DNA of 64,000 nucleotides from Balanoglossus misakiensis (Eukaryota > Animalia > Hemichordata). A program made the position numbers and the translations under genes. The notes under the pieces were generated by a model. The model had not been told where the DNA came from. It worked only from the letters and a program-made list of their open reading frames with translations, and made no database searches. This document shows positions 3,472 through 54,272 of the stretch, piece after piece. Within the stretch, counting starts at the first letter, position 1. Every line of letters begins with the position of its first letter. Where the stretch lies: positions 4,469,244 through 4,533,243 of the forward strand of contig CM082597.2 in assembly GCA_040954595.2 (NCBI GenBank), in the 5' to 3' direction.

Positions 3472-3526
3472 TTTTCACAGTTCGGTGGATTGTCAGTTAA
3501 TTAGCATATTTAATAGAGCGTTGATA

Positions 3527-3551
3527 GTCACGTGGCTTGTCGCTAGGCAAC
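3527..3551. promoter_or_regulatory. TMEM145 proximal promoter: E-box plus RFX X-box
   Basis: GTCACGTG (3527-3534) and GTCGCTAGGCAAC (3539-3551), 56-80 bp upstream of the ATG in a CpG-rich patch. A full CRE TGACGTCA lies at 3765-3772. Confidence 0.6.
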
Positions 3552-4445: not shown

Positions 4446-4726
<281 letters not shown>

Positions 4727-9300: not shown

Positions 9301-9498
9301 AAAAATCCTACGGGAATACACGTCATACCACAAAACGGAAGTACCCCCCCCCCGAAAAATATGATGGAGGGGCCCTTAAAATTGCACCCCATCATTTTCG
9401 GGTAGTTGGGTCCCCATAGAAGCCAAAACAGCAAAAAAATCAATTTTAGCACAAAAATCCTACGGGAGCTGTTTTTCTTGACATACCATACCGCACTA
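6322..9498. mobile_element. Non-autonomous Academ-type DNA transposon (3177 bp) with ~850-bp modular TIRs
   Basis: Termini TAGTG(T/C)GGTATG...CATACCGCACTA. 4-bp TSD TCAA at 6318-6321 and 9499-9502. About 6322-7190 is the reverse complement of about 8660-9498, and each arm has ~5 tandem 153-187-bp units. An internal Cys-rich transposase remnant is present. Confidence 0.88.
7462..7806 (-). pseudogene. Academ transposase remnant (C-terminal Cys-rich/CXC domain, with a probable fused N-terminal stub)
   Basis: Reads FITMRDKSYATNCSELPPIEKNGWKSENGVFYPVKCLALPAP*AVLELIKCGCKAGCRGRCSCSKNDLPCTPLCKCYGGD, then an acidic tail DNDTDDE* in a shifted frame. It has an in-frame stop. Upstream MSDKNKICVI starts at the ATG at 7806. 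Confidence 0.8.
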
Positions 9499-12672: not shown

Positions 12673-12946
12673 CTCAGATTTCTGATCTGCAGCCGTCAAT
12701 CTTAAATCTCTTCCTGTTGGACGATTTGAGAATGCCACCCGGCTCCTGAGCGGCTAACCTGTGAACTGTGGGTACCTTCACAAGTTAGGGTCTCAGGGAT
12801 AGGGTAGCACTGAACTGCATCATGGGTAAAGATCACGGCGACCTTGAGGTGGACATTGTGACTGAGGTTGAAGGTCAAATGCAGCATTCAAAATGGCTGA
12901 GCCCAGTGGTCTGCTCACTTCACAGTACAGCTGTGTATATCTCCCA
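12673..12946 (-). ncRNA. 274-nt host-gene exon containing the pre-miR-125 hairpin
   Basis: Strong acceptor TGTTTGCTCATTCTGTTTCTTACCTTCTTACCAG and donor GAG|GTAAGA. All three frames contain stops. Confidence 0.7.
12741..12799 (-). ncRNA. mir-125: pre-miR-125 (lin-4 family); mature 5p 12799-12778
   Basis: Exact UCCCUGAGACCCUAACUUGUGA. Loop AGGUACCCACAGUUC. 3p arm ACAGGUUAGCCGCUCAGGAGCC pairs with a 2-nt 3' overhang. CNNC (CGUC) begins 18 nt downstream. Confidence 0.98.
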
Positions 12947-13311
12947 CTGGTAAGAAGGTAAGAAACAGAATGAGCAAACAGCATGGAGTAAGAATGTATA
13001 GACAGAAGAGATCATGAGATATGTGACCTATGATGTGTGAGATAGAGTGATCAAGTAAACTTGACAATGAAGGCTATATGGAGAGTAAATAAAAGCAAAG
13101 CATTTGGCTGCCAATCGCCAACACTTAAAAAGGGACCCCAAAGATACTGAAAAATTGGTTTGCAGGTGTCTAGATGTTCCATAATTATCTGTGGTGGGTA
13201 GGTATTCAAGTATGACTATAGGTCATGTAGTTATCTTATAGGAGTTCCAATAAACAAGGGACTGGAAAGCTATTCAAAATCTTTAAATTATACATGGTAT
13301 TGTTTTCAATG

Positions 13312-13401
13312 TCAACCCTTTCACCACTGGTTCCTTCTTTAGAGGTCCAACCTTACAGAAAACAATAGGTTTTGACTGAACCATAATGGTGAACGGGTTA
13401 A
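13312..13401. mobile_element. ~90-bp piggyBac-like (TTAA/CCCTT-ended) mini-MITE
   Basis: TCAA-CCCTTTCACCA...TGGTGAACGGG-TTAA. A second family member at 39887-39972 shares AGAAAACAAT.GGTTT. Confidence 0.6.
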
Positions 13402-16400
13402 ATTTACACTGACTTTAATGTGAAAGTGAAACTACAGGAACATCTTATGGCAAGTACCTGTACATGCTCTGCAGGTTATTAACTCTGACTACATGATGTC
13501 AATTTTATGTCTAATCCCTGTGTAACACATGCAAAACTTCCAGGACTTTCTGATTACGCTACAGCTATACTGTGTTATGCATGAAGCACTATTTGCACAT
13601 CAGTAAGTGTGAACGTAATAGTCTGTCTCCTAATACTGCACACTGCTACAAATCCGTGTTTGCCACTTCATACAGTACGTTATAAATTCATGGAGAGTTG
13701 GCGGAATAAAGGTTAAACCTGAAAGATTCATGTGTAACTCTTATAGTCCGATTTGTCCCTCTTCTGGTCATTATTTATTGAAGTAACAAGTGTCTGCCCA
13801 CTGGCAAGACACAGTTAGCTAGCCCAGTTTTTTGAGAGAAGGGGATTTAAAGGCCGACAATCGTCTTATTACACGCAAGTGCCTAATTTTGTGTGTAACA
13901 AACATTATGTCGCATCGAAACTGTCTCTCAGCAATGGCTGCTACCAATCACACTGAAAATTCACAGCTGTGTACTTTGATGTATGTATTTTTTCTCCTAA
14001 ATTTTGCTACATTGTAGCAAATTGATGGAAAATAACTATGCCTGTGATAAAAAAGTAACAATTGATTGTTGCATGATGTATATAGTGACACAATGTAACA
14101 CAAAGTTGCAATATTGTATTGTTGCATGATGTATTGTTTGATACAAAGTATCAGCACTTTGGCAATACTGTACATTGTAACAATTTTTGGCTTGCTATCA
14201 AATATGTTCTACAGGCCTAGGACCTACAGGGGATGACTGGCTAACTTAGAAAAACCAAGTATCTACGGTTATTGCATATGTAAATAATCCATGCCAATGA
14301 ACTGCTTTGTAACTATGAACAAAGAAAAGACGATGAATATCAAACTGACTTTTCTGACATGATAGAAGTTACCAAATCAAAATCAGAAGGCATGCACTAA
14401 AGAAATCAAATGAGAAGCCTCCTGATTGGTCAACGTAATTTGCCCTAAAATCATCTCTTTGCTCCAATTCAATTAAATATTCACGCTTGATGACTTGTCA
14501 TTTACATATTTCCTATCCTATGACATCTCTGTATATCTTTAAGTCAAAAAAACACACAAAACTATGATAATTACACAAATGTGACAACTATTTTGGAGGA
14601 TATGTTGACGAACAAACATTTTTGACCACAACAGATTTGATGAGACAGACACATTCACAGAAAGGTCAGCTCTTGTGACGCAAGTGTAAATGTTTAAGGA
14701 GTAACTGGTTGTCTGCCTCTATTGATTAGCAGACTCGAAGGCCGTTGTCGCCACCACGATTAATTTAATGTCTGCCTCCCACAGCAAAAAATCCCGTAAA
14801 TATTTTCAGATTTTTTTTAAAGAAACGAAGGAAATGATGGAATTTACTGAACTTTATCTTGTTCTAAAGTGAGATAAAAAACATCAGTATGTAGCTTTTT
14901 AAATTTAGATTTTCCAACTCCTATTATAAGTCCCCCCCCCAAAAAAAAATAATTCTATTTGTCTATACCTTCTGTAATATACTATGTAAAAAAAGTATCT
15001 GTATCTGTTCAATGCATTTTTACTCCATCACCAGTCACATGACCTTTTGCTCTTGTCACATGCATCATCTGTGCACTCGGCATCCAGACATCATGTGACC
15101 AGACCTCAACTTTGACCTCAACTAAGTTCAAATCCAGTTGAGAGCCATAATTCCTAACATTATAAACGACAGATTCGCTTTGTTAACAAGACAACCCTGC
15201 CCTTGTAATGTGCTTGTGTTCTCTATCACTATGCAAAAGAAAAAAAGTCAGACAAGAAGTGAAATTTACAGCGCCATGGAATTCATTCTGTCTGCTATCA
15301 GAATTAATCTGTTCTGAGATGGAAACCATCGCTGTCACTGTATCTGAGGAGATAGGCGTTTTCTTCCACATGCATGTAATCATACTCCACCACAAATATT
15401 TCCAACACAGCGAGGCAAAGCTGCAATCACGATAAAGTCATCACCCATTTATCACTCCACTGTGGTTTAACCCCTGTGGGTTTCTATGCCCGGGTTGCAC
15501 CAATATGCAGGGAAAGAGGGAAGACTTATTTACAAAACCCCATCCTTTTTCAAAAAAGTGTGATCGAAAGACAACCAGGGCTAAATCAAAGCATGGATTT
15601 GACAGACATGAATACAACCACGGTAATTTTATACCATTTGGGTGGACGACATTATCTGACACCAGTGTTCTACACAGGATATGCCAAACGGACTTAATCT
15701 ACAAAGCTGTCATGCACACACGTACTGTCTCAGTCCCACTTCCCATTTTTAATTCATCGACAAAATGCACATGATCAAATTTCACTCTCTCAAATCTCCA
15801 TTTTTCATAAAATCTTTAACGAAGACGAATTTCATTCAAGAAATCAAATCCTAATTACCTTACATAAATTAAAAACTGCATTTTCATCAACAAAGAAAAA
15901 CTGTTTACGTGAGGGGGGGGGGAGAGTCTGCAGACAGAGGGCAACTGAGGTCATACATGCCGATAAATTTCAGTCTAAATACCTGAATTGAAATTCTCCA
16001 CTGAATCATTAGATGTTCAACTTTACTACCTATTTATAGTCTTTTGTGTAATTTCAAATGGTATGTTAGTGTGTTATGCAACTGCTATTTAATCAGATAC
16101 TTCTGCAAGCAATGTTTTATGTTAAGGATTCACTAATTGAAAATGTATTAGGATTAGGTTATGTTTGAGAAAATGTTTTCACTTACAAAACAATACAAAC
16201 TAGCAGATTGTTTTGTCGCACAAATTAAATGCTAAGAATAACCTGCCTAACAATGGGAAAATATGAGTTATTTACGTGATGGGTGTCGACGGCAACACTG
16301 ACCTAAATAAAAATCAGTTATAACTGCATTCTGTAGACTTTTATCGCATCTATTTAACCTAAATAAAAATTCGCTTTTCATGCTGAGAGATAGTCTTGTA

Positions 16401-19400
16401 TTGCCCCATCAATTGTCATCAATATAGTATAAGAGGTGTTCGCATATCTCCAAAATTATTTAGCTCACAAAAGTAGCAGACTACACAGTTTTGGCGGGAA
16501 AGCATTCTGTACCAGCTAAGCCGCAAACTGTCTGCGTTTAAGCAAATATGAACAAGTCAGTAGGGTAAAGGTTTAGCACGACACGTGTGATTATCATATG
16601 CTAACGATCTCAAATATCCATCATATATCGAAAATCCTCGGCGGTTATTACACTACAAAGTTCGGCGGGAAATATAATGTCTGCCCTCTGCCTCGAGTTC
16701 ACCTCAAATGACCTTTCAAACAAAGTAGAGGTCACCACTGCCTTTTTTAATGTGTCAAGCTGAGGAAGTTGACAGTAAAGCCTTAATGCCCAGTACTGAC
16801 AGTGACATATTACCTCAGCAACGAAATTTAACCATCTGAAGGTAAAAAATGTACATATCCATGTATTCTAATATAAAATTTGGTTCTCGAAATTTGAATG
16901 AGCCTGTTGCAGGTCATTGTCAAAACTAATCTTGTGCCAAATGATCCATATACCTACAATTACAAACATTTCACTTGATTCAAATATCCCATTTTTTTAT
17001 CACTCCCTACGTGACCATAGAAGAAAAGATTTTTCAGTATGCATTTAGCTGAAAATGGCTAAGATTCTGGAAGAAAAATATCTGTTTTGGACAATCGCAA
17101 ATAGTATTTTACAGACAAGCGAGTATAGAATGTTTAAGTCTATGCAAAAGGACAGACACACAGACATTGTTGCCGAAGCGTCTAGAATTTTTCATCCCCT
17201 ACCGTACACTCAGCAAATAACTCTTTGGAGAGGGCTAACGCATTCAAACACTGGAAATTCTCCAACCATGTCAAGCTTTCTTCAGTCTTGACACAAAACT
17301 AATACGCCTTTTTAGTGAAAATCTGCCTTTTCAGCGAAGAGGCGTCTTCATATTAATTTCGCCCCTGGTGCATCAAATAATTTGAAAGTGCAATGTCTGT
17401 CTGTCTGTCCCCATTTCGGTGAACAGACTGTGGCAGACGCCGACATCATAAAACAAATACTACATTTTGTTTGTCAATGCGCATGATGAATAGGCAGACA
17501 TAACAGGCGACCTTTTGACCTAGATAAAGCTGAAATTCACTTCCCATGCATTGAGTATAGGTTACTTCTTCCTCACAGACTACTTGTTAATTTTTATCTT
17601 TAAAAAAATACACCTGTCTGGAAGGCTAGTTTTCCTATAAATGTTGATTTAATTTAAATTTGCGAGAATCTCTGAGGCCTGTTTCTTGCATAAGGATACA
17701 CTGGAGGTTGAACTGAAATGTCGGTATGCAGATTTTAGGCGGGAAACCCCTTGACGGTTAACACATGCAAAAAAACGTCATTTTGATATTTCGTAAATTC
17801 AAACGAATTCTGGAAGTGTAGGAACGAGACTTCATTCTGTAGATTTTACAGACAGATGAAGAAATTATAGCGTCGGTGATTGAACTAGTCTGCATCTGAT
17901 CACTTCTCTCAGCATGAAAAATAAAGAAAGACAGACGCAGCTGCAGGTTGCGATTTCCATGCACCACACCCCTGCACTGAATGAATCTTAGAATAACCCT
18001 ATTCTCTGCTGATCGGTAGAGTCCATTCTTGTGCTAAATCGGGTAAGTTTATGTACATGGTCTGACTAAGTTTCACCGATCTCAATGTTATTTCTTCAAC
18101 TGTCATAAATCTTGCCCGTCTTTACAGATAGGATACGTAATGGCTAACTACAATATAAAAATGCACTTTTCTGCATTGAAATGCTGATATTATAACACAC
18201 TATTTGACACAAGTGAAACAAAAAGTGATACATGTCTGCCTGCCAGACAGGTAAAAAATTACCAAGGGAAAAACAGATTTTCCCGTTAGAAGAAACCGAG
18301 AGACACCCTAAGTAGACACCACTGAATATTTGCATGGAAGTATTAAACTCGTGCCTCAATGAAATATCTGCATGTTTAAGATGTTGGAAAATCTCGCAAT
18401 TCCGAATCCTGAACTGTCATTTCACCCCAGGCACCTGTCCTTGATTGGCCAGACATTGCAACTAGGCCATAGAATACCGAAGAACCGAGCAGAAAATTTG
18501 ATTTTTTCCCCTATCCTGTAAAACAAGCAGTCGACAGAAGTCTGACCTCTGTGAAATGCAGACGTGTACCTATGCCCTCAATTTCACATGGAAATCAGTA
18601 AGCTTTATAGACTACATGCATGTTAGTCGGCTTGACCTAAAAAAAAATTCTACACTGCTGATGTAAATTCCCCAAAGCTACTAAAACATAACTGACGCAG
18701 TTCTAATTACAAAACGTAACAGACTGGTATTCCAAATGTTCTTTTTTCTCTCTCAGTCGATGACCGAACGCCCTTACCTTAAACATATGAAAGACCGTCA
18801 GTCCATTTTTGTCAAACCTCAAACTCCATTTCGATTAAAGAGACGCAAAATGCAGCCGGATTTCTCGGCAAATTTCTCTTGTTTTCGCAGACACTCAACC
18901 AACACCTCATCTTCGCAAGCATCTAATCGCCATGACGATGATGTAATCTCTAGTTGTGGCCACTTGTAGCCAGCAACCCATTGGTGTCTGTACGTTAGCT
19001 GCACCTCCCTCTAACCCAGCTGGCGCAAAAATATAGCCTGTCTAGACGTTAATATAATCAGGGCGATGGACTAACCCCCTAGCTTACTGTCGATTGTGAA
19101 GTACAGCAGGGATAGGGGTCCAGGGGGGTCAACTACCATTGGCTCTCATAAGTTATGCTTATTGCACGGTGCTGTAATATTAAAACAAAGCCAAAAGCGG
19201 TATGCAGAAGCAGTAAGCAGTGAACCCAGTATAGGGCGATGTTTTCAATCACAGTGGTACTGTCTGATTTCACAGACATTTTCCAACAAGCCAACATATC
19301 AATGCGCGGGCAACAGAAAACGTGTTGGTTACACGACGACTTTCGTGCAATGATATTTTACTGTTTGTCATCATTAGCATGCTAAACGGGACTCAATGAA

Positions 19401-22131
19401 TGAATGTCTCAACAAACAAAGACAACCTCAGAATTGGCAACGGAAATGCAAGCAGCATTCTTTCATGATTTCATCTGAGTACAACGACCTGTAATTTTTG
19501 GGGTGTCTCAAATAATCATGATTTCTCAATCAGTACATCCAATTCTTTTGTTAGATCTTGGTCAAAATGCTATGAACACAGGCCTGAGAAACACATACAT
19601 ACCAATATGCAAGCATCACAGATGATTCGAAAAAGCAAACTCACATTTTAAAAGAAATCAACGAACTCTAGTTATCACCTTCTGCCAACATTTCACTTAC
19701 TGATTTTGGAAGGACACTGCAGTAAATTTGACAGTTCATGAACTCAACTTCACTAAAACTACATTACTTCCATAATACAGTCACTAAAGAGAAGAGAAAA
19801 CATCAAAACACTGGAGGAACAAAGATGACATTTAACAAATGCAAAGCTCATTTCTCGCAAATTCATAAATTTCTGACATAAAATCAGACAGAACCTCAAA
19901 CAACGTACATGCTTTCACTTATAAGCACCTCAAAATATGCTCAGACAGGTTTTTTTTCTTGCAGGCAATTCAAATGCCGTGCGATTGAATTCATTAGCAA
20001 CATAATCTTTCACTGAGAGTTCCAGCACGTATATCGCATGTTGGCGTATTCAAACAATGTGCCACACCTTGAAAGCATCAGTCAAATTCGTCTGTCGGTA
20101 CGATTTTTTTGTTTCTCATTGAAAATTTGACATGAAAAATTGTGACACTTGGGTAGTTGTGGCCAATCGGTCAGTGCTAGATTCACTTTGGAGTAAAGAA
20201 ATCGCCTCGCGTGTCGTTTACACCCCTTCTTTTCAAAAGTGTAGCCGGAAGCACCCTCGGTGGGACAGAGGCCGTGCTAAATGTGTCCGTAAGCGAGCTA
20301 CGGTTGGATCTAAACCGACCGAGAAACCAAAAGATGACTCCTGAAGGTGAAATGCATTTAACACCTTCAATAGAGCACCAGATTTAATCCGCGATGGCAA
20401 GAATCGCACCAAAATCGGGTATTAAAATTTCGACACAGGCAAACACCTGGAATTGAAATAGCCAACAGTTCAGAAGAAATTGTATACAATGTGTACAAGA
20501 GAATGTGTAAAATAAACAGTAGATTTTTGCACGGCCCAGAAAATCTGGTGACCCAATGCCCACCTGTCAAATAATGAATGAGGAATCATGGTACACTGAG
20601 ACATGGCAAAGCAATTGTTCATATTAGAAGCCATTTCAATCGTATCTCGTCTAGTCTTATTAAAATTGTTCGAAGAGAACATTTCTCTTTCTGCAGGATT
20701 CTGGATTAACATATCTGCATGGAAAATTTCATGACCACCCATCCCCCTAGAGATGGAAGGAAAAACACTCCAGACTCAGACAAGAGGTACACGAAAGGTT
20801 CTGAGATAAACCATTTAGGAGCAGTCACTGAAACCTCACACATTTTACTTGAAAACATGCTCAAGTATGTGGGTTAGTGGCTACAACCTACGATTACATA
20901 AATTTCATAAGTTGAGCAATATCTTTAAAGGCAGTGTCATGCAGAAAAACCCATTTCTTTTTGGCAGAGTATTTCTCCTGTCTGCCTGTTGAGGGCGCTA
21001 TTCAATCTACCCTGAAGACGTTTTCGAAGAAACGACAAAATGTGAATTGTCTGCATAATGAATAGGTTTTTAGCTTAAACTGACCAAACTGATCATTCCT
21101 AACCGTCAATATAGGAAACTGGTCATCTGACTTCAAATGTCCAGAGTGCATAGTCATTCCACCTTCAACTGACCAAAGTGGTCATTCTAACATCATGGCC
21201 ACAGTTGACATTCCAGCAAACAACCCAACTCTATTGCCATTTGGCTAAATTCACTGTTTAGTTCTCTGCAAAAGCGTTACAGACCTAAGTAAAGTTACAC
21301 ATTCTCAACTCAACAAGATTACCCCTACCGTAATGTTCATCAAAATGGTATGACCTCTCCGTTAATAATGGATGATGCCGCTATCATAAATTCAATAGGG
21401 TTGTTGGACATCATTTTTTTTCAATCATGTTTAATTCACACCCTGTGTCCATTTCCAAGAAATGGTTATTCAATGTTCTTTCTCGCTATCGGCTCAGACT
21501 TACATGCACAATGAAGGCCAGGTTGAACAAAAGCCATGTTTTTCATTGCACTTAAAACTATGTACTGACCTCGCTCTCAACTGAATGGAGCATACTAATC
21601 CCTCGACAGGTTTCCGAGAAATCCTTCATGGATTCCATGAAACCAGATGTCAAGGAAACTAAGTTACCCCAGCTGAGTTGAAATTAATCAACTTTACCAA
21701 ATAGACTGACTTCCACCGTTATACTACATTTCATTGGTTTTTGATTTAGTTTGGTTGTTTTATAAAGTTTATTTCATCAATCCCGAAAGAACAAATTGCT
21801 ACAGCAGAGATCGTACTGATTGTTGGTTACATGAAGGGAGTTTGGTGAAGAGCGCCCTCTTTAGGCAGACTTGCTTAACCTGTACATGTGCCAATTTCAC
21901 TGAAATTTCTCCATCCTTCAGCTCAGTGTCTCATAGATCACACAGGTGCTCCCCATATAATATGCAAATATGTACATTACAATCCCATCCCCCCCCCACC
22001 AGCCAATCACCCTTTTTATCCACATCTCTGCATCTTCCCCGACCCCACCCCCAGGGGGAGAAAGTCTCACGGAATATTAATCAGTTTGCCGTCCGTTGCT
22101 GCCAAGATCGGTGCGTATTCTCCCGCCCCTG

Positions 22132-22199
22132 GGAAAGTTAGCAAGTTGTACAGTTATCTCCCTAAGGTATAGCTCTCAACTATACAACCTACTACCTCA
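22132..22199 (-). ncRNA. let-7: pre-let-7; mature 5p 22199-22178
   Basis: Exact UGAGGUAGUAGGUUGUAUAGUU. Loop GAGAGCUAUACCUUAGGGAGAUAA. 3p arm CUGUACAACUUGCUAACUUUCC. Lower stem CUGGG/CCCAG. Confidence 0.99.
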
Positions 22200-22669
22200 C
22201 CCAGAGAGCAGGCAACAAAACCTAGAGTTACCGTGGTTATGTGTCCTAAACTGTGTCCATGGCAACACTGATCACTGCATCCTTTGCTAATAACTGTCCT
22301 CGATTCGTACCCAGTTCTGCTCGGTATCTCCTGTGAAGCACCGTGTCTGTCTGCGAGATGATTTCCCTATGGTAAGATGTGTCTCCTGTTGAAAGTACAG
22401 TCAACCTAGGCACACAGCAAAGTATCCACGGGTTAATACATATGCCCGCTAGTTCTTCCCAGCACAATGCTGATTTAATCTTCAAGTATGACTTATAATT
22501 GCCATGTCCTCCGTTATTTGTAAGTGCATCAATACAGATTTTATCTGAATGCAGTTCTGATCTGGTCTTCCTTCGTCGCTAAAAAAAATCTCGTTCTGAA
22601 ATCCCACGTCTACTCTGTCTGGCTATGACTGCATTTGCCATCGTCCATGTCGACCACAATCATCTTGTG

Positions 22670-23385
22670 GAAGATCTTGAATGGTAGATGATCAGGCATC
22701 TGCAGTTTTGAATGGTACATAATCTTGCAGGTCGAATGGTAGATGGTTTTCTTGGTTGAATTGTAGATAATCTTGCTGACAAATTTTAGATGATCCTGCA
22801 GGTTGAAAGGTAATGATCTTGCAGGTTGAAAGGTAGATGATCTTGCGGGTCGAATGGCCTAGATGATCTTCCTGGTTAAAATGGTAAAATAAAATGGTAG
22901 ACGATCTTGCAGGTTGAAAGGTAGATGATCTTGCAGATCGAATGGCCTAGATGATCTTCCTGGTTAAAATGGTAAAATAAAATGGTAGACGATCTTGCAG
23001 GTTGAAAGGTAGATGATCTTGCAGGTTGAAAGGTAGATGATCTTGCAGGTTAAAAGGTAGATGATCTTGCAGGTCAAATGGCCTAGATGATCTTCCTGGT
23101 TAAAATGGTAAAATAAAATGGTAGACGATCTTGCAGGTTGAAAGGTAGATGATCTTGCAGATCGAATGGCCCAGATGATCTTCCTGGTTAAAATGGTAAA
23201 ATAAAATGGTAGACGATCTTGCAGGTTGAAAGGTAGATGATCTTGCAGGTCGAATGGCCTAGATGATCTTCCTGGTTAAAATGGTAAAATAAAATGGTAG
23301 ACGATCTTGCAGGTTGAAAAGTAGACAATCTTGCAGGTTGAAAGGTAGAAGACCTTACAGCTACAGGTTGAATGGTAGATGATCA
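22670..23385. repeat. Minisatellite: 24-bp monomer (AGGTAGATGATCTTGCAGGTTGAA) with an 88-bp higher-order repeat
   Basis: The marker GGCC(T/C)AGATGATCTTCCTGG recurs at 22856, 22944, 23080, 23168 and 23256 (spacings 88, 136=88+48, 88, 88). Edges are degenerate. Confidence 0.95.
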
Positions 23386-24307
23386 CATTGCTTCTGCTGG
23401 CAGCCATAAGTGTATTCCATATTGCTCATGTTGTTCTTTAATACAATCAATATGCTTCACTTCATCACAGTTGTGTTGTGTCGGTCAGGGCTCTTTATAA
23501 CTTCATCTACCTCATTCTGACGTGGATATCCATAATTTAATCATCTGTAGATCAAATTGCAACTCAATTCTGTCTTCACCTACTCTCCTCTCGCTGTCGT
23601 TCTATACCGAACTGCTAATTATACCAAATTTTCTTAAAATTCAAAGGGCAGCCATTACAACTGCTACCATCCAAGCACATCGCGGCAAATGTCTTTAAGG
23701 CACACACCAAAAATCATCCAATCACACCCAGCGTTACATATACCCACTCAAGGCAGCCTCCATCGTCCAATCACTCCACACCACACAAAACCACGCCATC
23801 ACTACCACCCACCAACGTCTCTTATTCAAAGCGTACTTTGACCCTTGTCAACAGCTGTGTGCTCTGCCTGACACATCAACATCTGATCTCTTTTAATTAT
23901 TAGTCTGCAAATCCAGAAATATAATTATTGCCAGCACAAATGCACCTAGTCAAAACACAAAAGTAAACACAAACACACCCACCATCAACAACAGGTCATT
24001 GGAATTGGAACAAATTAGACCAAAACGTCCACTGAACATTTATAAAGGGTATGTGCAACCTCTGCCAACAAACACCATCTGGTAATTTATCTAAATGTGT
24101 ATTTTGCAATATTTTCGACTTGAACAGTGGTCTCATATCTCTATTAATATAACCAAATATTAGCCATTGATCATTTTCAAAACAGATGTTCAATCTTAAC
24201 TTGGAGGTTACTGTTTTTCCTGATAAATATAGATTAGAAAAATACTATTAAAACAACTATTTATTTTTATCCTTATAAAATGTTTAAAATTAAGTGTAAT
24301 TTATCTG

Positions 24308-24468
24308 TACAGTAAAATTCCAATTATCTGAATTGTTTGTTTATCCGCACTGCTGTCATGTCCCCCAATCGTATTGTTTACGATCGTTATCCGAATAACC
24401 AAACTGTCTGCATATCCGAACAAAATCAATGTCCCCCTGTCAGTTCGGATAATTGGAGTTTTACTGTA
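24308..24468. mobile_element. ~160-bp pogo/Tigger-like MITE
   Basis: TA|CAGTAAAATTCCAATTATCTGAA...TTCGGATAATTGGAGTTTTACTG|TA. ~23-bp TIRs, TA TSD, internal TTATCCG sub-repeats. Confidence 0.8.
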
Positions 24469-24812
24469 CTGATTTCTAACACAATGTTTATTATGTATTC
24501 AAAATATTAGGACAGACCAATTTACTGATTACTTTTGGTTTATCATCATTTTCTTTTTTTTTTCTGATTACTCATCAGTCATACGAGTTCTACACTGGGC
24601 AAAATCAACGACAGACTATTTCAAATTACAACAGAGTGGCCGTGGTGGCATGATAGAAGTTGTCAAATTAAAGAATGCAAAAAATACAACCATAAAAAGC
24701 AAAAATTGTGAAGTTATACGTATCACATATGGGGAATGTGTCGTGCTTTCTGGAAATACGTCGTCTGCTCTGGGACCTACACAAAATCTCCCATCACATT
24801 TATCAATCTGGC

Positions 24813-24828
24813 AGGTCACGTCAGGTCA
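24813..24828 (+). promoter_or_regulatory. Perfect DR4 nuclear-receptor element
   Basis: AGGTCA-CGTC-AGGTCA, between miR-100 and let-7. Confidence 0.5.
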
Positions 24829-26879
24829 CCATTCTACTGTTACCATGGTGACAGACAGTGCCAACCAAACCCTGTCTCATCGCATCCACCCCAACTGAAG
24901 CGCTGAAAGGATTATTCAGCATTTCGTATACAATTTGGCAAAGACCGCTTTCTTTGCGACTAAATTACCCAGCATTCCACGGGAGGGAAGCGAGACAGCG
25001 ATATCTTTGTTCTTGCGAGCGTGATGCACGCCGACATAAAACATGGTGTAACTTCATCAGTATTCAACTCTTGTAGTCTCTACACTCACAAAAACTACCC
25101 TCTGATGGGTATTTTCGCCAAATGTCACTTAATTTTTAATCATTCATAAATCGGGAAATGAGACACCCAGCCCATCAAATTTACAATCTAATAAATCTTT
25201 GCATTCTTCTACTATTTGGGAATATGAATATACCGAGAGAAAAAAATGAGATTTATCATTTCCATTCTCAAAAATTTCTCTGCAGTTACTGATATCACAG
25301 AATTTCATTGGCATTTTTCTCTTCAAATGATGGAAAAACAAACATGACTGAGTTCCCTTTAGCATAAACTGCTAAAGTTTATTCCCTGATTTATTAAAAT
25401 ATTTTTGGCAATGTTTGTTATTTCTTGGAAAACTTTATTTATAAACTTAAACAAAACAAAAACAAAACAGTTTTCTCTTTTCTCATAGACGGATATGAAA
25501 CAAGTGTTCATATTAATATTTGATTTGTAACTGGATCTCATATTTTTTTAAACTGTTATCAGATTAAATTTCAGTTTAATATCAATGTTCAACCATATTA
25601 ATTCTAAATTTTTAATATCCCACTTCCTGCGCAGAGACACACCACTGTTCCTCTGCATAGCACTGTCTGGCTGGCCCCCATCAACTGTCATTTGACCTGC
25701 AAAGGACACCGACCCCTTCGCGGCCGTGCTGTCCACCCCCACGCAGACAATGGTACCAACTGTCTGGCTTGCAGACAGTCAACAATGGCCGACCAGGTTG
25801 CCCTTCAAACAATGGAGATTAGCTCCCCTGTAGGGCAGGCCTGCTGCGAATCACTTCAGAGCCAATACTTCAGAATAAAAAAATCTACCATTCTGCTTGT
25901 ATACAAAGCTTTGCATACAATCCAGCCTAACCCCAAAAGCACCCACAATACATGTCGTCCGTCCGGCTCAATACGGACCACGGGATGTAAAAAAAAAATC
26001 CATGTCAAAGTTCAAAGGTGAATAACAACTGACATGCTCTGAATACGTAAAATGCCTATAATGCTAAACCAGTGTTTACAAGTCTAATAAACTTCAGAGG
26101 CGGTCCCATTGTAAATACCACTATTTCATTTCATTGCATGGAACTCAGGATTATGTATTCATGTTCTGTGACTGTAAATATTAACCAAAGTAAATATAAC
26201 TTTTCTCCTGGCACCTGTATTAAAGTTTACATTAATATTCCTAACTAACCTATTTCTAATCTAAGTTTATTAATTTGACAAACCTGATCTTGACAACTGT
26301 AAGGTTTGAACTATTTGCTAGCTCTGTACCAAGTAAAATAGTAATAAGACTAAAGCTTAATCTAAAAGACAAAAAACATATTAAATTTTGTGCTCTTATA
26401 TGCCTGGTGTGTATAAGGCTATGAATGCCTTAACACAAATTGTACATAAAAATATGTACTTTACTGTAAATATAGGAGATGTGAATAATTATATGAAAAA
26501 TAAAATACATGTATATACTGTAAAGTGTAAAATATTTAGAATAAGCTGCTCGCTTTTTAGCGAATGTTGATTTCCATTAACAAATGGATTTTAAAATAAA
26601 GAAAAAAGTTTAAATTAGCAGATTATTAATGAGGAAATTAATTTACCAATACTAACATAGGATTAATTGTGTAACCTTTGGCTCCGGAAGTTCCAGTTTC
26701 CTATAAAAAAAGTTCCGGGATTTTTTCCCCTGAGCTAAGAATAACATGGGAAGTTGCTAAAGTTAAAACTATAACTTCCTATCTTAAAATAAAATTTGGG
26801 TCAAAGCAATGCGATGGATTGGTCTGGTCTTGGCAAGGTTCATTGTATTGGAAGGGCCTATGTCCATGTGTTGGCAATG

Positions 26880-27212
26880 ATGCTAGAATCTCTATGTAAA
26901 TTGATGCCTTATAATGCTACAATGTACATAATTGCAAACAATGTGGTTGTTACTTTGTGTTACAATGTACATAATTGCAAACAATGTGGTTGTTACTTTG
27001 TGTTACAATGTACATAATTGCAACAATATGGTTGTTACTTTGTATTACAATATACATCACAGCAAACAATACTTTGTTACTTTTTATCACATTTCAAGCT
27101 ACTTTTGATTTACTGATTGGCAGGGTCTCCCTGAACAGCAGGAATAATGTTGATGGTTTGTTTATAAACAGAAAAGTCGCTCATGAGCAGTTCGGATGAC
27201 TCTCCCCTTTAA
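26880..27212 (+). mobile_element. Truncated TTAA-ended (Kolobok-like) repeat with internal 43-bp tandem units, copy A
   Basis: About 4 units of ACAATGTACATAATTGCAAACAATGTGGTTGTTACTTTGTGTT, then TTGGCAGGGTCTCCCTGAACAG...CTCCCCT|TTAA. Homologous to 31367-31722 and 53800-54024, which are in the opposite orientation. Confidence 0.7.
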
Positions 27213-28663
27213 AAACAAGTAAGATGTAGCTCTTACATAGGCAGACCACAACAAACAAACAAAAACAACACGATTTCCTGTTTGCTTTTTGATTGAGACG
27301 AGGTAAAATTGGTAGAATTCCTTTCTGGGAAACAGAAAGGAATAATAACAGTAAGGTTGTGGAATGTTCATTGATGGGTTCCCTCCATCAGTAACGGCCT
27401 TTCGAGAGCGTAGGTCAGATCTCGGCAACACCGAAGAATTTTGCGGTCAGCAGGAACGCGTCCACTATTCTGGCGGGAAAACGAATGTGGTGGAACTTGC
27501 CAACTTGGCCGGCATTCAACTATGTTGCCATGGCTACTGGAAACCAAAAACCCGACCCAGGGGGGTGGTTTTTGAAAAATTCCATAACTTAACAGGAATG
27601 CACTCTGATCGCTGTGGGCTGCATTTTGTCTTATTTATAGTCTTGGTATGGCTCGGAGCTCCTATTGTAATATCCATTTTGCTTCCTGCGGTTCAGCCAA
27701 TCAGAGACGTCTACGTCACTAACTTTGCAAGACAGAGGAAGTAATGTGAACCCTTAAAATTCATCGCTCCCTGCTTTAACCCTATCATGCAGGTTCACGA
27801 AGTCCTACTTTTTAGCACAGTCACAACTGTCACAATTTGATCTTTCTAAAGTTGCTTTCAATTAAAAATGAATTGAATTTTGTCTGTTAACTTCTAGATA
27901 TAAACCAACAAAAGAATTAACAAGAGGGTAAGCAGAAAACACTGCAGGTATCTCTATGGAATGTTCTGTGTACTCGAAAACCACTGCCTACCACAATCTG
28001 GTCATGGTTTTTTTCTCTTTCATCGTCTTTCAAGCGGAGAAAACCACATCCTTCTCGGATTCCGGGAAGGTTTTTGGCCGCTGTCTGGGGGTGTGGTGTG
28101 GTACGGGGGTTATATTTAGCCGGTGTTTACACAAGAGAAAGTTGAAGCGCTTTCAGATGAAAGGGTTCAACGTTCTCTCGATGGAAAGCTTTCTTCTGCC
28201 GCACCTCAGGTGATCAGACGTGGGCGATGGGGGGCGAGTGGGCACAGTGCATGCTCTGGGGAGGGGGAGAAGGTCCCGCTGACCGGATGGGCGTAAAAAA
28301 AGCAGCGATGCGTCAAAAGAAGTGCAAAGTACGTGAATAAATAGAATGAAGGAATGAGAAAGCATAAGAAGAAAGATGACAAGTACATACCTGTCTGCAT
28401 CCATTCTTCAAACTTTTGTCTGCGAAGAATTTATGTTCGTGATACTTTCACTTTCAAACAGTAATTTGTTAATAATATTAAAAATACGGCCCAAAAATGT
28501 TCCTATCATTGCAAAACGCATTATCATTTTCTTTATCTATCTATCAATCCATCTTTATATTTCACACATTTTGAAATGTTTTGCCTGGCATTTCTTGATA
28601 TGAAGTACGCTGTACTTGACTGATGCAAATTTTGTCAGCCAGCTGTTAGATGCCATGACGACA

Positions 28664-28722
28664 TAGACCCATAGATGCGAGCTTGCGAGCTGAACCCAAA
28701 CACAAGTTCGGATCTACGGGTT
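28664..28722 (-). ncRNA. mir-100: pre-miR-100; mature 5p 28722-28701
   Basis: Exact AACCCGUAGAUCCGAACUUGUG. Loop UUUGGGUUCAGCUCG. 3p arm CAAGCUCGCAUCUAUGGGUCUA. Lower stem UGCCA...UGGCA. Confidence 0.99.
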
Positions 28723-28765
28723 TAAGCAATCTGGCAGATGCCACTCTGCACTCAGTGTCACTTAC

Positions 28766-29042
28766 CTCCTTTTCTCTTAATCCACTAACTGCGCCCGGTT
28801 CTTGTCAATTTTTTCAATTTCTACATTTGTCCGAGAACTTCCAAAAAAATTAATACTTCTTTTTTAAAAAGATACATCCTGGTCAGTTGCTGACCTGATT
28901 ACTGAATTTTTTTTTTTTTTTTTCATCATAGCCAATCAGATTCGATCATCAAAGTTGTGCCACTTCATTTGGTATTCGCTCATTACTAATGCAGCCAATC
29001 ACAGTACGCTACCAGATAACAAGCCCAAGTTCTCGGAAATGC
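28766..29042 (-). ncRNA. Candidate host-gene exon immediately upstream of miR-100
   Basis: Consensus donor GAG|GTAAGT at 28765. Either an internal exon (acceptor AATTTTCAG at 29043) or a first exon (Inr-like TTCAGT at ~28904 with CCAAT boxes at ~28932 and ~28994). Confidence 0.5.
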
Positions 29043-31366: not shown

Positions 31367-31722
31367 TTGAAGGGGAGGGTCGTCTGAGCTACACATATGT
31401 GACTTTTTTCTTTATAAACACACCATCAGCATTGTTTTCACTGTTCAGGGAGACCCTGCCAACCAATACATGTTATATCAAATTAAAAAGTAACAATGCA
31501 ATTGTTTCCCATGATGTACAGTGTAATACAAAGTAACAACCACTTTGCTTGCGATGATGTACATTGTAGCAGTTATGATGTACATTTTAGCAGTTACACT
31601 ACAGTGTACTACAAAGTAACAATTACATTGTTCACAGTGATATACATTGTAGTACAAAGTAACAACCATTGTTTTCAATTGTGCACATTGTAGCAGTTTA
31701 ACTTTGCAAGGGCTTGCTAGCA
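31367..31722 (-). mobile_element. TTAA-ended repeat family, copy B (inverted relative to copy A)
   Basis: CTGTTCAGGGAGACCCTGCCAA (31441-31462) is the exact reverse complement of 27117-27138, followed by CAAAGTAACAACC units. Confidence 0.7.
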
Positions 31723-31780
31723 ACTGTGTCCTGCAGCCGCAGACAGAACGACACCTACCCTTTAGTAGAGATCAGAGACT

Positions 31781-32575: not shown

Positions 32576-35500
32576 TCCCAGTGCTAATGACAATAACTTT
32601 TCCAGACCACAAGTCAACGGAATGCACCTGCCATCTTATTGATACAATTGTAAACTTTTATCATTCAAATATAATCTATGAAAAACTGCAACACTTTGAA
32701 ATAGTTGTGGGAACTTTAGTGGCCAGAAGTCTCTGTATTTATCTGGTTGTCTGAAATTTCATATTGGGGAGACTTCATTGCTAAACTGTTCACTAAACTA
32801 AATCCTGGCAAAGCAGTTACTGGTTAATATGAAAAAAGTAATGTTGACATGGCTGAAATGAATGTTTTCCATCCGTTCAGACTTCACAGGGGAAAGGAAA
32901 AAATTTGCAAAAGTGGGTCGTGAAATCAATCTCGGAATTTGAAGTATCTGTGACAGGCATTACATAGTGTTTCAAACTGAACCTACTGGCCTACTGTTGT
33001 ACAGAGAGGGGTCTGTTGTAAGCTAAAAATAACACCCAATCCGACGGCCAGAGAGTCTAGCCCCTGCATGTGGCTGATATAGGACTCTGTAACACATGGG
33101 TTTCGGAGACAGCAGGCCAGACAAAACGTACGTGAGGTCACGGAGTGATCGATGACTATAAATCTGGTGGTGAACCCTTTGTGTGGAGGAGGGTTCATGA
33201 GTTTTAACTATCAAGCGTGTTTCTTCGTTTTATCTCAGATCCCTGGTGTCTGGACAAGTGGAGCCCACGAGGCGGTTGGTTGGTTGGTTGCCACGGCGAG
33301 AACTTGCGCTTTCGTACGTGGGACGCCCACGCGACGACTGGACGTTGATCGCGCCATAGGACTCTTAAGGTGGCTGGCACTGTGCTTACAATATACCTTT
33401 AAGGAGTACCTCTAGCCGCCTGTGATGTCAGACTTGACCAAACAGACGAGGTGCAACCGGAGCGGCTGTTATGAAGCTCGGCACGTAAACGATGTTTGCG
33501 TACGGTTGCGTAGAACCGGGCATTTGTAGTCTGCGCATGCATGGTCTCCATCAAGCGCGCTGGCATTTTGCTTAGAATCTGACATATTACTCAAGCTATA
33601 TATCCACGCGGCTTAAACAAACGCGCACAAAGAGGTGAGGTGAATAACACAGTGGGTAGCTACCTTAAAAATTATTCAAAACATTATCGCGCAATCGTCA
33701 ACGTGAAATCACACACACGACGCCCGGAAATCGCACCGGAACCTCAAATTACAACTGTCATCAAAAAATCACCTAATTTGCTTCAAATGGGATTCTCGCC
33801 AATAACTCGGAACTTGACAGAAAAAGAAACGTATCTTATACTTAAGACCTCTGGAAGGATAATGGAAGTCACGATATCCCGTCACGACACCAAAAATCGC
33901 GACTCGCCCGTCCTCCAATCAGGTACAATAGACTTCGAAATCTACTCGTGCCGTCGAACAGACTACACGGCAAAATGAAATAACGCGTTCAATTACCTTT
34001 GCTGAAACAACTAATCCAAACACCGCAGAAGTTAAAAATCTATGTGAACCCGGTAGCACGCGGAGGGACGCTGGGCGACGAAAGCTGCAAAGGTTACTCG
34101 CAGACAGTCGACATGCCCCATGGAATGAAAATGAGATCACGTGAACAGATCCCAACCCACCAATGAGAAGCCGGCAATTGTTCGTAACTGTTGACAAATG
34201 ATCAATTTATGAATCACACCATAGAGCCTTCATTATTCTGTTTCTAACTTTAAAATCAATGTCGAATTTTTGTAAAGCATAACTATAATTCAAAGTATAA
34301 GAGGCGAGAATACTAACGTCGGCGCGAGACGTTTGACTGCGTCAAAAGACGAACCAAGAACAATCTGTTTCTCACTACCACTAAGAAAGAGGCCTCACTA
34401 AGTGATAGGGTAAAGCCTCCTGCCCTTCTGAGTCAAAATTTACACACTGCCTGCGAGCAATGAGAGACCAGACAGACATTAAACTGACCCGCTGACCCCA
34501 GCGACCTAGCCCCCATCAATGAATTGAAACCATGGTTATTTATGGATTCCACGGTGGCAAGAAATCCCCTCCCAGACTGACGTCCCGCGCGGCAGGCAGG
34601 CATCGCCGGCCATTTCTGGGGCAAACAACAAGATGGCGGCCGCGTATTGACTGGCCGCGATGAATCCAGAACATGATGATCGAGTCCTGAATTTATCAAA
34701 GCGCAGACAGGGGTACAGTGACCCGGATTTCACAGAGGAAGATCAGACGGTGTCAAGCTGAAGGTCTGCCTGATAAGGAATTGAAATAAGACAGGCAGGC
34801 AGCTAGGAGTTTTACTCTTCTGTCTGTTTGGCAGCACATGTAGGCATAGCACGTGGCGTACAACATAATCACCTGATTGTCCGCGATGGGTGCGGCGCAC
34901 TATCGGAACCAAATCGAACGTCTGAAGTCAAAATGTTTTTCAAATGTGTGCACAGAAAAATCACACTGGGTATGTCAAAATAGGAAGCTTAGTTATAAGT
35001 GCACCGACTCACTGCTATGGTGAGGTTCAAAGAATAGAACGATGGAGAAAATTTCATGCAAGTCAAAATTTGTGTCTGAAGCGATCCCTGCACCGAAACC
35101 GCGGCGACACCAATATGACCGATGGTACAGGAGGTCCGTCTAGATCAATGAAATTGGAGGATGCGGTGTCTATCCCCCCTCACGACAGTGTCCAAATATA
35201 CCAGAAGGCAGCCACCCACCCACTCAGTCGAATGCAATGGCGGGAAGCCACCTCAACCACAAACGTCACAAAACCCACCCACAACCACAAACGTTTCAAT
35301 AAAACCAATGTACAAAACAGTCGTATTTAAAGAAATAAAACTCCACTGCCTTGGAAACCCGCACGATTGACAAGGCTGGCCGAAATTAGGAAACAGGGCA
35401 GAGAAAAAGACTACAATCAGAAATAAGCACATGGCACTAAATCATATGGTGACGTCATTCTACACACACCTATAGCATATTGGTAGGTAACTCATGTACA

Positions 35501-38500
35501 TATATAGTTGACACACTAGAGGAATTGTTAACTTGACAGATATTGAACGCCAGCTCCTTGCTCTGACAGAAATTTCCTTCCTACTTTGTAAATAAATTAC
35601 TTATTAAATCTTGAGATATTTACCACTAAATATACCAAAATGCCCAAAATAGGGATAATAAATATATTGGGAAATTTCACAGATTTTGCGTTTGCGGAGG
35701 CGATATCACGTCCGCGTTTTTTCTCTGTCGCGGCAGACACGCGCGGCCAAAGGAAGAAACGGTTAGAAATTCGAAGGTACTGATGGATACTCACAGTGTC
35801 CTAATTTCCTGCACATTCATTCATAGCTACGGCGGCACTGAGTGACCAGGTCAAGCACTGAACATACATATACATCCAGTGGGCCCAGACACCCAGCTTG
35901 CAAAGTCACGGTCCCCACGACGACCGTAACCGGCGACCACGCCGGCCAACGAATCCTCTGTTCAACATGGCGACCTGTAGGCACTGGTGCGGTGATCGGT
36001 CGATGCACAATGCATATGTAACCGGTAAGACCCCGCCACTTGTAGGCAGTGCACTATGGGTTTTGTCATCCACATTTGAAATATTTTCAGACAGTTCAGA
36101 CGCCGGCTGAATACTAATCAGCTAGGTGGTCCTACTGTGTCATTTACGAACGAGGGGTGTGCCAGGCCAGGTCACCGGGTCACAGATCTTAAACTAGCCA
36201 GCCTTTTCATCCGGAACCACCTGAATTATGTCACCATGACAACAATGGTATGACTCACTACAGCCGATGAGTGACCACAATGGACGTCTGGCAGGGCAGT
36301 GACTCCCGCATCTCACCCACAAACGGTTCTCCCCCCCCCCCCTTTCGCAGACACAATGGAACAGTCGACAGCAAAGTTGACAGAGGAAAGAAAAAAACTT
36401 GCACACTAGTCACAGGAAAAATCTGACATATCACTGGGAAGGCGAAGCCGGCTAACGAGCATGCGTTCGACGAGGAAAGTCTACTGACCAATCACGGAAG
36501 AGTCTTGACTTCACTGAATGAACAATGAGCAAGCATTAGATTTTTACAGTGAGACAGTTTCTTGATGAATTGCTCTCGCCGATGTACCCCTCCATCAATT
36601 GTCTAACGACGACATCCACATTATCTCAAATAATTCCAAAAAACGAAAAATGTCTGCTTAAATTTTCAGTGGTTTTTCCATCAGTCGTGATCAATAATTT
36701 AAATCAAATAATTTTATATCATCTGAGCTTGCAACTTAGAAATATAACGCCAACGGTTCAATTTAGCAAAACCCAGAGAAAAAATATCCAGAACATCAAA
36801 ATTTTGGACTACGCACCTCCCATGTAATATACAAGGTCTATGTGTCTGGTATATTACAAACTAAATTAGGTCAAAATGGACATCTTCACAGAAACCCTTT
36901 CAAATCCAATAAGAATGTACGTTATGTAAAACTGCTTCAAGAAAATGAGCTCCCGGAGTAAATCCACCCTCGGATGAAATTACAGTTATCAAAATTCTAC
37001 AAGCAGTCCGAGACAATTACGCGGAGAAACCATATTCCAGACATCACGTTAAATTACCCACATCTCGTGTACGCCTCCCAACGCCAACAGAATCACTCAT
37101 CTGAAATTCTCATTTTTTTATCTTCAGAGGATTTATTTTTTTGCCTCTCTGGCACAGTTGCCTTGGTTTGACCTGCGATTTTTTGTGTGTGTGTGTAGCC
37201 AGTCAGACCACGCAACGAATCAGCAAACAGGGCAAACAAATTAATATACCTGTTTTCTTTCCAGGCACTTATTCATGTCAAACTGCCAGACATTTAAATT
37301 AACCTCTGCTACTTAAATATATCACAGGCAGCTGATTTGAACTTTACTCCGTCTTGTGAATTTTTATCAGAAAAAAAATGTTCTTATATTCTTTATTTTA
37401 TAAAATGCATTCATGACTCATTCAATATTTGAAATAAATTTAAAATATACTGCAAACTGTCACACTGCAGTCTACTGGGAAACGGTTTCAATTAATTTTG
37501 ATCAATACTACAATTTATAAAATAATATAATTATATTGAACCAAAGTAAATTGTGCATACAGCTTAACCTGGTGTCATGGAATATATACATTACCCTTTT
37601 TAAAGAATGTGTATTCTCAAATTTATATATATAGCTTTGTACGTACTTTACCTAGGTCAGCTAACCAGATTTGTACAAAATGGCATTTCTAAGCTGCTTT
37701 GAAACTTCTAGAATGCATCAAACATGGTGGGGAATAAATGCCTCTTTTGAAATAACAGAAACAACGAGAAAAAAAGAAGGTGGAAAAAACAGCTGCTTAT
37801 AAAAGCATTGCGTGTTTTTGTTGACAAAGGCTGACATTTCAAAACGCGATACAGGTCAATCATACCCCATCTTTAACCTACACAAAGCCGGTTTTATTTA
37901 TATAACTGCTTTTTATACAAAGTCGCAAATTTTACTTAAAAATTAACAGATATTAATGAATTATTTAAAAAGATCTAAATAAATTGGTAGTGTAGGATAA
38001 CTTAAGGTCAGAAATGCCCAGAGTTGAAAAACAGAAACGTTTTTGAGGTCAAATTTTGAGTACAATGCGCCAGACACAACAAACACCCGTAACATAGTAA
38101 ATAACACTATAGACTCTGTGACCTTTGACCCAGGGTTTTAGTTACTGCAGATGAGCAAGGGCTGAACAGAAACTTGCCATTCCAAATACTTTTCATACCC
38201 CTCCTATCAAGTTAGTGAAAGCTTTCTCATACGCCTTGATAACATTGTTTCAAACCTATAAAACCACTCCAAGTTCAGTATTATCTTTAAAATCTTTAAA
38301 AATCATAATACCAAAGTTCATATTTTGGTAAGCAAACATCCAATTGCTAAGCAATGGTTCACTACAAATAGCGAACAACGACACTTGCACATGTATGTAA
38401 AATGCATGTGCATCGCATTTTTAAGGTTTGCTTCATTTCATGTTTTCCATTTCTTGAAATCTATATCATGACCAGAATCTGTACATGAACACTGCAGCAT

Positions 38501-54222: not shown

Positions 54223-54225
54223 TAT

Positions 54226-54272
<47 letters not shown>

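What the first reader, a model, noticed from the sequence alone, without database searches (positions are those of the whole stretch)
12741..28722. Complete, widely dispersed miR-100/let-7/miR-125 developmental-timing cluster in ORF-free DNA
Seen: exact canonical mature miR-100, let-7 and miR-125, each in a hairpin, co-oriented on the minus strand in the ancestral order. miR-100 to let-7 is ~6.5 kb and let-7 to miR-125 is ~9.3 kb. Known: this cluster is the bilaterian heterochronic let-7-Complex, compact (~1 kb) in Drosophila but spread over kb to tens of kb in the human MIR100HG locus. Inference: a vertebrate-like dispersed layout in an invertebrate, leaving room for separate regulation of each hairpin. 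The ORF track does not show it.
Basis: partly seen in the sequence, partly recalled or inferred. Interest (0 to 1): 0.85.

Follow-up and report, generated by a model that had tools for sequence, protein, structure and literature searches.

The report
Ordinary, widely spaced let-7 microRNA cluster

Summary
miR-100 (28722), let-7 (22199) and miR-125 (12799) lie on the minus strand in ancestral order, 6,523 and 9,400 nt apart, each in a strong hairpin (z -5.7 to -7.2). Their mature sequences match published ones exactly. The cluster is already reported in acorn worms, and this scan met it before on other DNA (e1-7469698, e1-9365002). The wide spacing is long but neither new nor vertebrate-specific. 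Parhyale has miR-100 and let-7 within a co-transcribed 9.3 kb. Published cockroach coordinates span 63 kb, though that paper's summary table says 6.3 kb. Insect cluster length tracks genome size. Amphioxus (2.5 kb) and vertebrate locus A are compact, so this expansion is likely independent. Separate regulation does not need distance, because the 1-kb fly cluster is already differentially processed. One likely consequence is that the spacers exceed the ~2-kb reach of Microprocessor cluster assistance, so each hairpin should be processed on its own. Two untested leads remain: strong splice signals predicting a 274-nt exon around miR-125 (an acoel precedent exists), and a fourth hairpin 0.5 kb behind let-7. 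No RNA run was available, so expression and co-transcription are untested.

The parts
28664..28722 (-). pre-miR-100 (59 nt, 3' end inferred from fold); mature 5p 28722-28701; 12-bp lower stem, basal UG, apical UGU/GUG, downstream CNNC
   Evidence: motif definitions recalled
22132..22199 (-). pre-let-7 (68 nt); mature 5p 22199-22178; GGAG in the 24-nt loop (LIN28 zinc-knuckle motif, recalled); 3p arm identical to the printed cockroach star sequence
12741..12799 (-). pre-miR-125 (59 nt); mature 5p 12799-12778; 10-bp lower stem, apical UGU/GUG, CNNC at +18
12673..12946 (-). Predicted 274-nt exon holding the whole miR-125 hairpin: acceptor AG at 12948-12947 (rank 13 of 3,534; 81-nt AG-free, 78% pyrimidine lead-in) and donor GT at 12672 (rank 9 of 4,184)
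   Evidence: prediction only, approximate recalled weight matrix
28760..28768 (-). Consensus splice donor (GT at 28765, rank 2 of 4,184), 43 nt 5' of mature miR-100
   Evidence: not seen in miR-100 loci of other animals
28385..28393 (-). Second predicted donor (GT at 28390, rank 12), about 274 nt 3' of pre-miR-100
21574..21683 (-). Candidate fourth hairpin about 0.5 kb 3' of let-7: 43 bp, -46.8 kcal/mol, 7 G:U pairs, z -5.6 on the cluster strand against -2.0 on the other; no Rfam family; stem longer than a canonical pri-miRNA
33001..36500 (.). CpG-rich block (o/e 0.95 against 0.43-0.59 over 12.7-33 kb), candidate promoter region 4-8 kb upstream of miR-100
   Evidence: promoter role inferred
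22680..23384 (.). 24/88-nt minisatellite in the miR-100 to let-7 spacer
26911..27212 (.). Copy of a dispersed repeat with 43-nt units; an inverted copy at 31367-31723 lies on the other side of miR-100, and a partial copy at 14043-14182

Best explanation
[quoted passage not shown] Shown: identity, order, strand, spacing and folds. Inferred: transcription starts in or near the CpG-rich block at 33-36.5 kb. Drosha/DGCR8 and then Dicer release the three 5p miRNAs, which act on developmental-timing targets as in other bilaterians. The spacers grew under weak constraint, independently of the tetrapod expansions, much as cluster length tracks genome size in insects. Because both gaps exceed about 2 kb, the help that fly miR-125 gets from its neighbours is likely lost, and each hairpin carries its own processing features. 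Unequal output would come mainly after transcription (LIN28 on the let-7 loop, editing, possibly splicing).
For: Exact matures, folds and Rfam hits. The cluster is reported in the acorn worm, and the ancestral state was tight, with expansion in tetrapod loci C and D. Invertebrate spacings in print: Tribolium 100 bp, Anopheles 3.8 kb, Parhyale 9.3 kb and co-transcribed; cockroach coordinates span 63.2 kb. Cluster length correlates with genome size, r2 0.874 in six insects. L030, whose let-7 hairpin equals the printed cockroach precursor, has no miR-100 in 6,883 nt upstream and no miR-125 in 8,926 nt downstream. L001 has a miR-100-like hairpin at -4,576. Assistance fails beyond about 2 kb (review) and fly miR-125 depends on neighbours. 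All three hairpins have 10-12 bp lower stems and CNNC at +18/19. Minus-strand AATAAA is rarer than plus-strand inside both spacers (2 vs 7, 6 vs 12).
Against: The miR-100 to let-7 gap is in the upper tail: 14 of 16 distinct let-7 hairpins with a visible miR-100 have it within 1.1 kb (short contigs bias this). Hertel calls invertebrate clusters typically tight. The cockroach paper's own table S7 gives 6.3 kb, ten times less than its coordinates. Self-comparison marks only 1.5% and 15.6% of the two spacers as repeats, so insertion-driven growth is not shown; a genome-wide repeat library was not available. The genome size is unknown. AATAAA runs the other way upstream of miR-100 (6 minus vs 1 plus). 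Co-transcription was not tested.
Confidence: 0.72

Rival explanations
1. The long transcript is spliced so that the distance is partly undone. miR-125 sits in a 274-nt exon (12946-12673). A donor at 28390 would remove let-7 in a 15.4-kb intron and bring miR-100 and miR-125 to about 420 nt apart, while the donor at 28765 would make miR-100 intronic too. Splice choice would then set the ratio of the three miRNAs.
For: Donors of rank 2, 9 and 12 of 4,184 and an acceptor of rank 13 of 3,534 lie next to two of the hairpins. Only 2 exons can be built from the top 15 donors and top 15 acceptors, and one holds miR-125; the chance for any of three hairpins is about 2%. The chance of a top-10 donor within 100 nt of two hairpins is 0.26%. 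In the acoel Hofstenia an 834-bp intron between let-7 and mir-125 was confirmed by RT-PCR, and introns were predicted in 63 of 116 clusters (preprint).
Against: The tests are post hoc and use an approximate recalled matrix. Other strong sites lie in the spacers (donors 18777 and 20563; acceptors 20748, 27326 and 15929), so the pairing is a guess. None of 19 miR-100 hits in other animals has a donor of score 6 or more upstream (16 had the full 150 nt). Neither of 2 miR-125 loci has a strong acceptor. Drosha often cuts during transcription, before a 15-kb intron is complete (recalled; raised as a hypothesis).
Confidence: 0.2
2. The cluster is linked but transcriptionally uncoupled: miR-125 (or let-7 plus miR-125) has its own promoter in the spacer, as human miR-125b-1 does.
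For: Human MIR100HG has a proximal promoter for miR-125b-1 alone (review) and at least three start sites. The 9.4-kb gap is close to the 10-kb boundary beyond which co-transcription becomes less certain.
Against: No CpG-rich block lies between let-7 and miR-125: o/e stays at 0.35-0.76 per kb against 0.9-1.16 at 33-36 kb. The predicted acceptor before miR-125 implies an upstream exon.
Confidence: 0.15
3. The cluster has a fourth, lineage-specific miRNA at 21683-21574, close enough to let-7 to be helped by it.
For: In a 90-nt scan of both strands (8,522 windows) the four most stable unbranched hairpins were let-7, miR-125, this one and miR-100. It folds far better on the cluster strand (z -5.58 vs -2.03; 7 G:U pairs). 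Amphioxus has a fourth member in its cluster.
Against: 1 of 6 shuffled 64-kb strands gave a hairpin as stable, and two non-miRNA hairpins in the real strand are more stable at a 115-nt span. There is no Rfam family. A 59-63-nt precursor would leave a 20-21-bp lower stem and no CNNC at 16-19. No look-alike was found in the 37 loci or in the scan's notes.
Confidence: 0.2

Closest known systems
[quoted passage not shown]
   Same: Same three genes, order and strand.
   Different: That paper gives no hemichordate distances in the sections read; its supplements could not be read.
Drosophila let-7-Complex (PMC4005697, PMC4691827, PMC9247461; passages read)
   Same: Same members and order; a polycistron.
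   Different: 990 bp against 15,982 bp here; the fly's neighbour dependence of miR-125 is unlikely to work across 9.4 kb.
Human MIR100HG and MIR99AHG clusters (PMC3384580 section 8; PMC5945639 passages)
   Same: Multi-kb gaps, the larger one before miR-125; GGAG in the let-7 loop (motif recalled).
   Different: 46 and 50 kb before miR-125, all intronic; the expansion is placed in tetrapods, so it is separate from this one.
Parhyale (9.3 kb) and Blattella germanica (coordinates span 63.2 kb) clusters (PMC5111886 passage; PMC5121899 passages and supplements 1 and 6)
   Same: Invertebrate clusters spread over many kb; identical mature sequences in Blattella.
   Different: Parhyale lacks mir-125; Blattella table S7 conflicts with its coordinates.
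Hofstenia let-7/mir-125-a spliced pri-miRNA (bioRxiv 10.1101/2024.12.01.626237, section 15 read)
   Same: A splice acceptor between let-7 and miR-125 (predicted here).
   Different: There the intron is 834 bp and RT-PCR confirmed; here any intron would be many kb and is untested.

Membership tests
miR-100/let-7/miR-125 cluster (let-7-Complex) | All three mature miRNAs present | tested here: met
miR-100/let-7/miR-125 cluster (let-7-Complex) | Same strand, order miR-100 then let-7 then miR-125 | tested here: met
miR-100/let-7/miR-125 cluster (let-7-Complex) | Each mature on the 5' arm of a pre-miRNA hairpin with lower stem | tested here: met
miR-100/let-7/miR-125 cluster (let-7-Complex) | Rfam family match at curated cut-off | tested here: inconclusive
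   met for let-7 and miR-100; miR-125 21.1 bits against a 47.5 cut-off
miR-100/let-7/miR-125 cluster (let-7-Complex) | One polycistronic primary transcript | not testable with these tools
   no RNA holder listed; only indirect sequence hints
miR-100/let-7/miR-125 cluster (let-7-Complex) | Small-RNA reads with precise 5' ends | not testable with these tools
Vertebrate MIR100HG-type dispersed cluster | Vertebrate origin and tetrapod expansion | tested here: not met
   let-7 3p arm equals the printed cockroach star and differs at 3-4 positions from the vertebrate-type loci (vertebrate label recalled)
Canonical pri-miRNA (fourth hairpin) | About 35-bp stem, 11-13-bp lower stem, CNNC (criteria recalled) | tested here: not met
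   43-bp stem, 20-21-bp lower stem, no CNNC in place

The most novel reading that the evidence does not exclude
Splicing re-compacts a dispersed let-7 complex. Alternative donors on either side of miR-100 (28765, 28390) join to an exon that carries miR-125 and loop out let-7, plus an undescribed fourth miRNA, in a 15-16-kb intron. Splice choice would then switch neighbour-assisted processing on or off and set the ratio of the timing miRNAs in a non-chordate deuterostome.
Probability: 0.12. Interest if true: 0.55.

Novelty: new member of a known kind. Interest (0 to 1): 0.18.

Why it matters
As it stands it adds one data point to a known pattern: the let-7 complex expanded separately in several lineages, here likely in a hemichordate, while amphioxus stayed compact. 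It would matter more if the miR-125 exon is real, because the acoel preprint's proposal that splicing tunes this cluster across Bilateria would gain a long-intron test case with exact junctions. A fourth miRNA would be a small addition to the hemichordate catalogue.

Tried and rejected
No whole genome is held, so there was no repeat masking, paralogue search, genome size or independent taxon check. The sequencing-run search for 20000-29900 gave 'no RNA holder listed', so no reads were laid. The miR-125 22-mer found nothing in viral or prokaryote genome contigs. No second let-7, miR-100 or miR-125 copy exists in the window at up to 5 mismatches, apart from the miR-100 star arm and the miR-100/miR-125 cross-match. 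The plus-strand Rfam hits mir-3596 and mir-10 are the antisense images of let-7 and miR-100, and the hits at 935-1027 come from G/C runs. Coding genes: 0 of 34 frames hit Pfam. Conserved non-coding elements: blastn of the window against the 37 loci gave 40 hits, all at the three hairpins. Conservation of the splice signals in other animals was not found. Hemichordate coordinates were not found in the library (searches; MirGeneDB 2.1 paper). They may be in miRBase or MirGeneDB, or in the Hertel supplements (unreadable), the millipede figure and supplements (mostly not searched) or the preprint supplements (not consulted). One search (with 'Blattella' and 'genome size') returned nothing. The scan's notes had nothing near this place or in relatives.
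Full report
Observation. Each occurs once, with about 1e-8 expected by chance, and equals by eye the Blattella germanica mature printed in PMC5121899 supplement 1. The 5' ends are 6,523 and 9,400 nt apart; the whole span is 15,982 nt. The hairpins fold at z -5.74, -7.19 and -5.92, with 0 of 200 shuffles as stable. Rfam passes let-7 and miR-100 (as mir-10) at the curated cut-off; miR-125 scores only 21.1 bits. Of 38 open frames of at least 100 aa, 34 were scanned and none hit Pfam.

Organism. No genome is held. The let-7 3p arm equals the printed cockroach star sequence and differs at 3-4 positions from the loci I take, from memory, to be vertebrate. CpG o/e swings between 0.2 and 1.3 per kb, like the mosaic methylation of invertebrates (recalled). 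Earlier notes on this genome call it a likely acorn worm; I could not test that, since the window has no protein gene. Hertel et al. report the ancestral cluster in the acorn worm.

Is the spacing unusual? It is long but not new. Hertel et al. call protostome clusters typically tight, place the expansion to 46-50 kb in tetrapod loci C and D, and describe locus A as compact throughout jawed vertebrates. Amphioxus holds four hairpins in 2.5 kb. Dispersal is therefore not a vertebrate trait, and an expansion here is likely independent. The Parhyale paper gives mir-100 and let-7 within 9.3 kb and co-transcribed, against 3.8 kb in Anopheles and 100 bp in Tribolium. The cockroach coordinates (1024563, 1027262, 1087715) give 2.7 kb and 60.5 kb, a 63.2-kb span. 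The same paper's table S7 lists 6.3 kb, which I read as a likely decimal slip but cannot settle. That paper also finds cluster length correlated with genome size (r2 0.874, six insects) and infers little constraint.

My own sample. An exact let-7 search of metagenome contigs gave 37 loci with 29 distinct hairpins. miR-100 (up to 3 mismatches) was visible in 16 of 29: within 1.1 kb in 14, at 4.6 kb in L001 (a real hairpin) and at 9.4 kb in L025. miR-125 was visible in 2 of 29, at 640 and 708 nt. Among the 9 hairpins with miR-100 and at least 2 kb downstream, 8 showed no miR-125, which may mean distance, loss or divergence. Six loci share a let-7 hairpin equal to the printed cockroach precursor; the longest, L030, has neither neighbour in 6,883 nt upstream or 8,926 nt downstream (Rfam on 15 of the 37 loci). 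Short contigs bias this sample to short distances, and some loci are probably let-7-only clusters. The window's first gap is thus in the upper tail, but gaps of the same order or larger exist in invertebrates.

How it likely works. A minus-strand non-coding transcript most likely covers all three hairpins, as in fly, Parhyale and human. Sequence hints are weak. A CpG-rich block sits at 33.0-36.5 kb (o/e 0.95) upstream of a CpG-poor body (0.43-0.59). Minus-strand AATAAA is rarer than plus-strand in both spacers (2 vs 7; 6 vs 12), but the reverse holds just upstream of miR-100 (6 vs 1). A review puts the reach of Microprocessor cluster assistance at about 2 kb, and fly miR-125 falls threefold without both neighbours. 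At 6.5 and 9.4 kb such help is likely lost. All three hairpins have 10-12-bp lower stems and CNNC at +18/19; miR-100 also has basal UG, and miR-100 and miR-125 have apical UGU/GUG (motifs recalled, cut sites inferred from folds). The let-7 loop has GGAG, the LIN28 motif as I recall it. Separate regulation does not need the distance: the 990-bp fly cluster already yields very unequal levels through ADAR editing and hairpin structure. What filled the spacers is not shown; self-comparison marks 1.5% and 15.6% as repeats, including a 0.7-kb minisatellite and a dispersed repeat.

Lead 1, splice signals. With an approximate recalled matrix, the minus strand has a donor at 28765 (rank 2 of 4,184) 43 nt before miR-100, another at 28390 (rank 12) after it, and an acceptor at 12948 (rank 13 of 3,534) with a donor at 12672 (rank 9) framing miR-125 in a 274-nt exon. 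That acceptor has an 81-nt AG-free lead-in, the most pyrimidine-rich of the top 20. Post hoc chance estimates are 0.26% and about 2%. An acoel preprint confirmed an 834-bp intron between let-7 and mir-125 by RT-PCR and predicts introns in 63 of 116 clusters. Against: other strong sites lie in the spacers; 0 of 19 miR-100 hits elsewhere have such a donor and 0 of 2 miR-125 loci such an acceptor. I put the miR-125 exon at about 35% and the full re-compaction model at about 12-20%.

Lead 2, fourth hairpin. At 21683-21574, about 0.5 kb behind let-7, lies a 43-bp hairpin of -46.8 kcal/mol that favours the cluster strand (z -5.58 vs -2.03). It ranked third of 8,522 windows, between miR-125 and miR-100. 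But 1 of 6 shuffled strands gave one as stable, two non-miRNA hairpins beat it at a longer span, Rfam has no family for it and its geometry is not canonical. About 20%.

What I saw of each paper. PMC3384580: abstract, sections 7, 9 and part 1 of 2 of section 8; supplements unreadable. PMC5121899: passages, supplement 6 whole, rows of supplements 1, 3, 5 and 7. bioRxiv 2024.12.01.626237: section 15 and passages. Passages only: PMC5111886, PMC5054118, PMC3247247, PMC4987109, PMC7523956 (most supplements not searched), PMC4691827, PMC4005697, PMC5945639, PMC13686912 (a review; its primary sources not read), PMC9247461, PMC8728216, bioRxiv 2024.07.19.604269. Searches gave no paper with hemichordate distances; databases I could not reach may hold them.

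Verdict. A real, intact, expected member of a known cluster. The spacing is worth recording but is not surprising. Interest 0.18. No RNA data could be laid, so expression, co-transcription and both leads remain untested.

Noticed in passing
window 6325-7162 and 8671-9467: Two arrays of 152-177-nt units in opposite orientation, up to 98% complementary, around a core of about 1.5 kb; looks like a foldback-type mobile element (label recalled).
   Followed up: no
window 26911-27212 and 31367-31723: Inverted copies of a dispersed repeat (79-85% complementary) flank miR-100 at about 4.2-4.6 kb apart and could pair in a long transcript; further copies near 10.6, 14.1 and 53.9 kb.
   Followed up: partly
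window 21574-21683, minus strand: Strong strand-biased hairpin behind let-7, candidate extra miRNA.
   Followed up: yes
window 47000-64000 and 2000-6000: CpG o/e near 1, in contrast to 0.2-0.8 over 10-33 kb, suggesting unmethylated and methylated domains.
   Followed up: no
window 1-64000: No Pfam hit in 34 long frames across 64 kb: the cluster seems to sit in a gene-poor stretch.
   Followed up: partly
PMC5121899 supplements 1 and 6: Cockroach cluster coordinates span 63.2 kb while table S7 lists 6.3 kb; this value feeds the paper's genome-size correlation.
   Followed up: partly
L001 (let-7 at 3001-3022, minus): Long-loop let-7 with a diverged miR-100-like hairpin 4,576 nt upstream that Rfam misses at the cut-off.
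   Followed up: partly
L034, L016, L006: miR-100 within 200 nt of let-7 but no miR-125 in 10.0, 5.7 and 4.9 kb downstream: distance, loss or divergence.
   Followed up: no
window 20746-20564 and 49893-49523, minus strand: Two other predicted exons with strong sites, possible exons of the host transcript.
   Followed up: no
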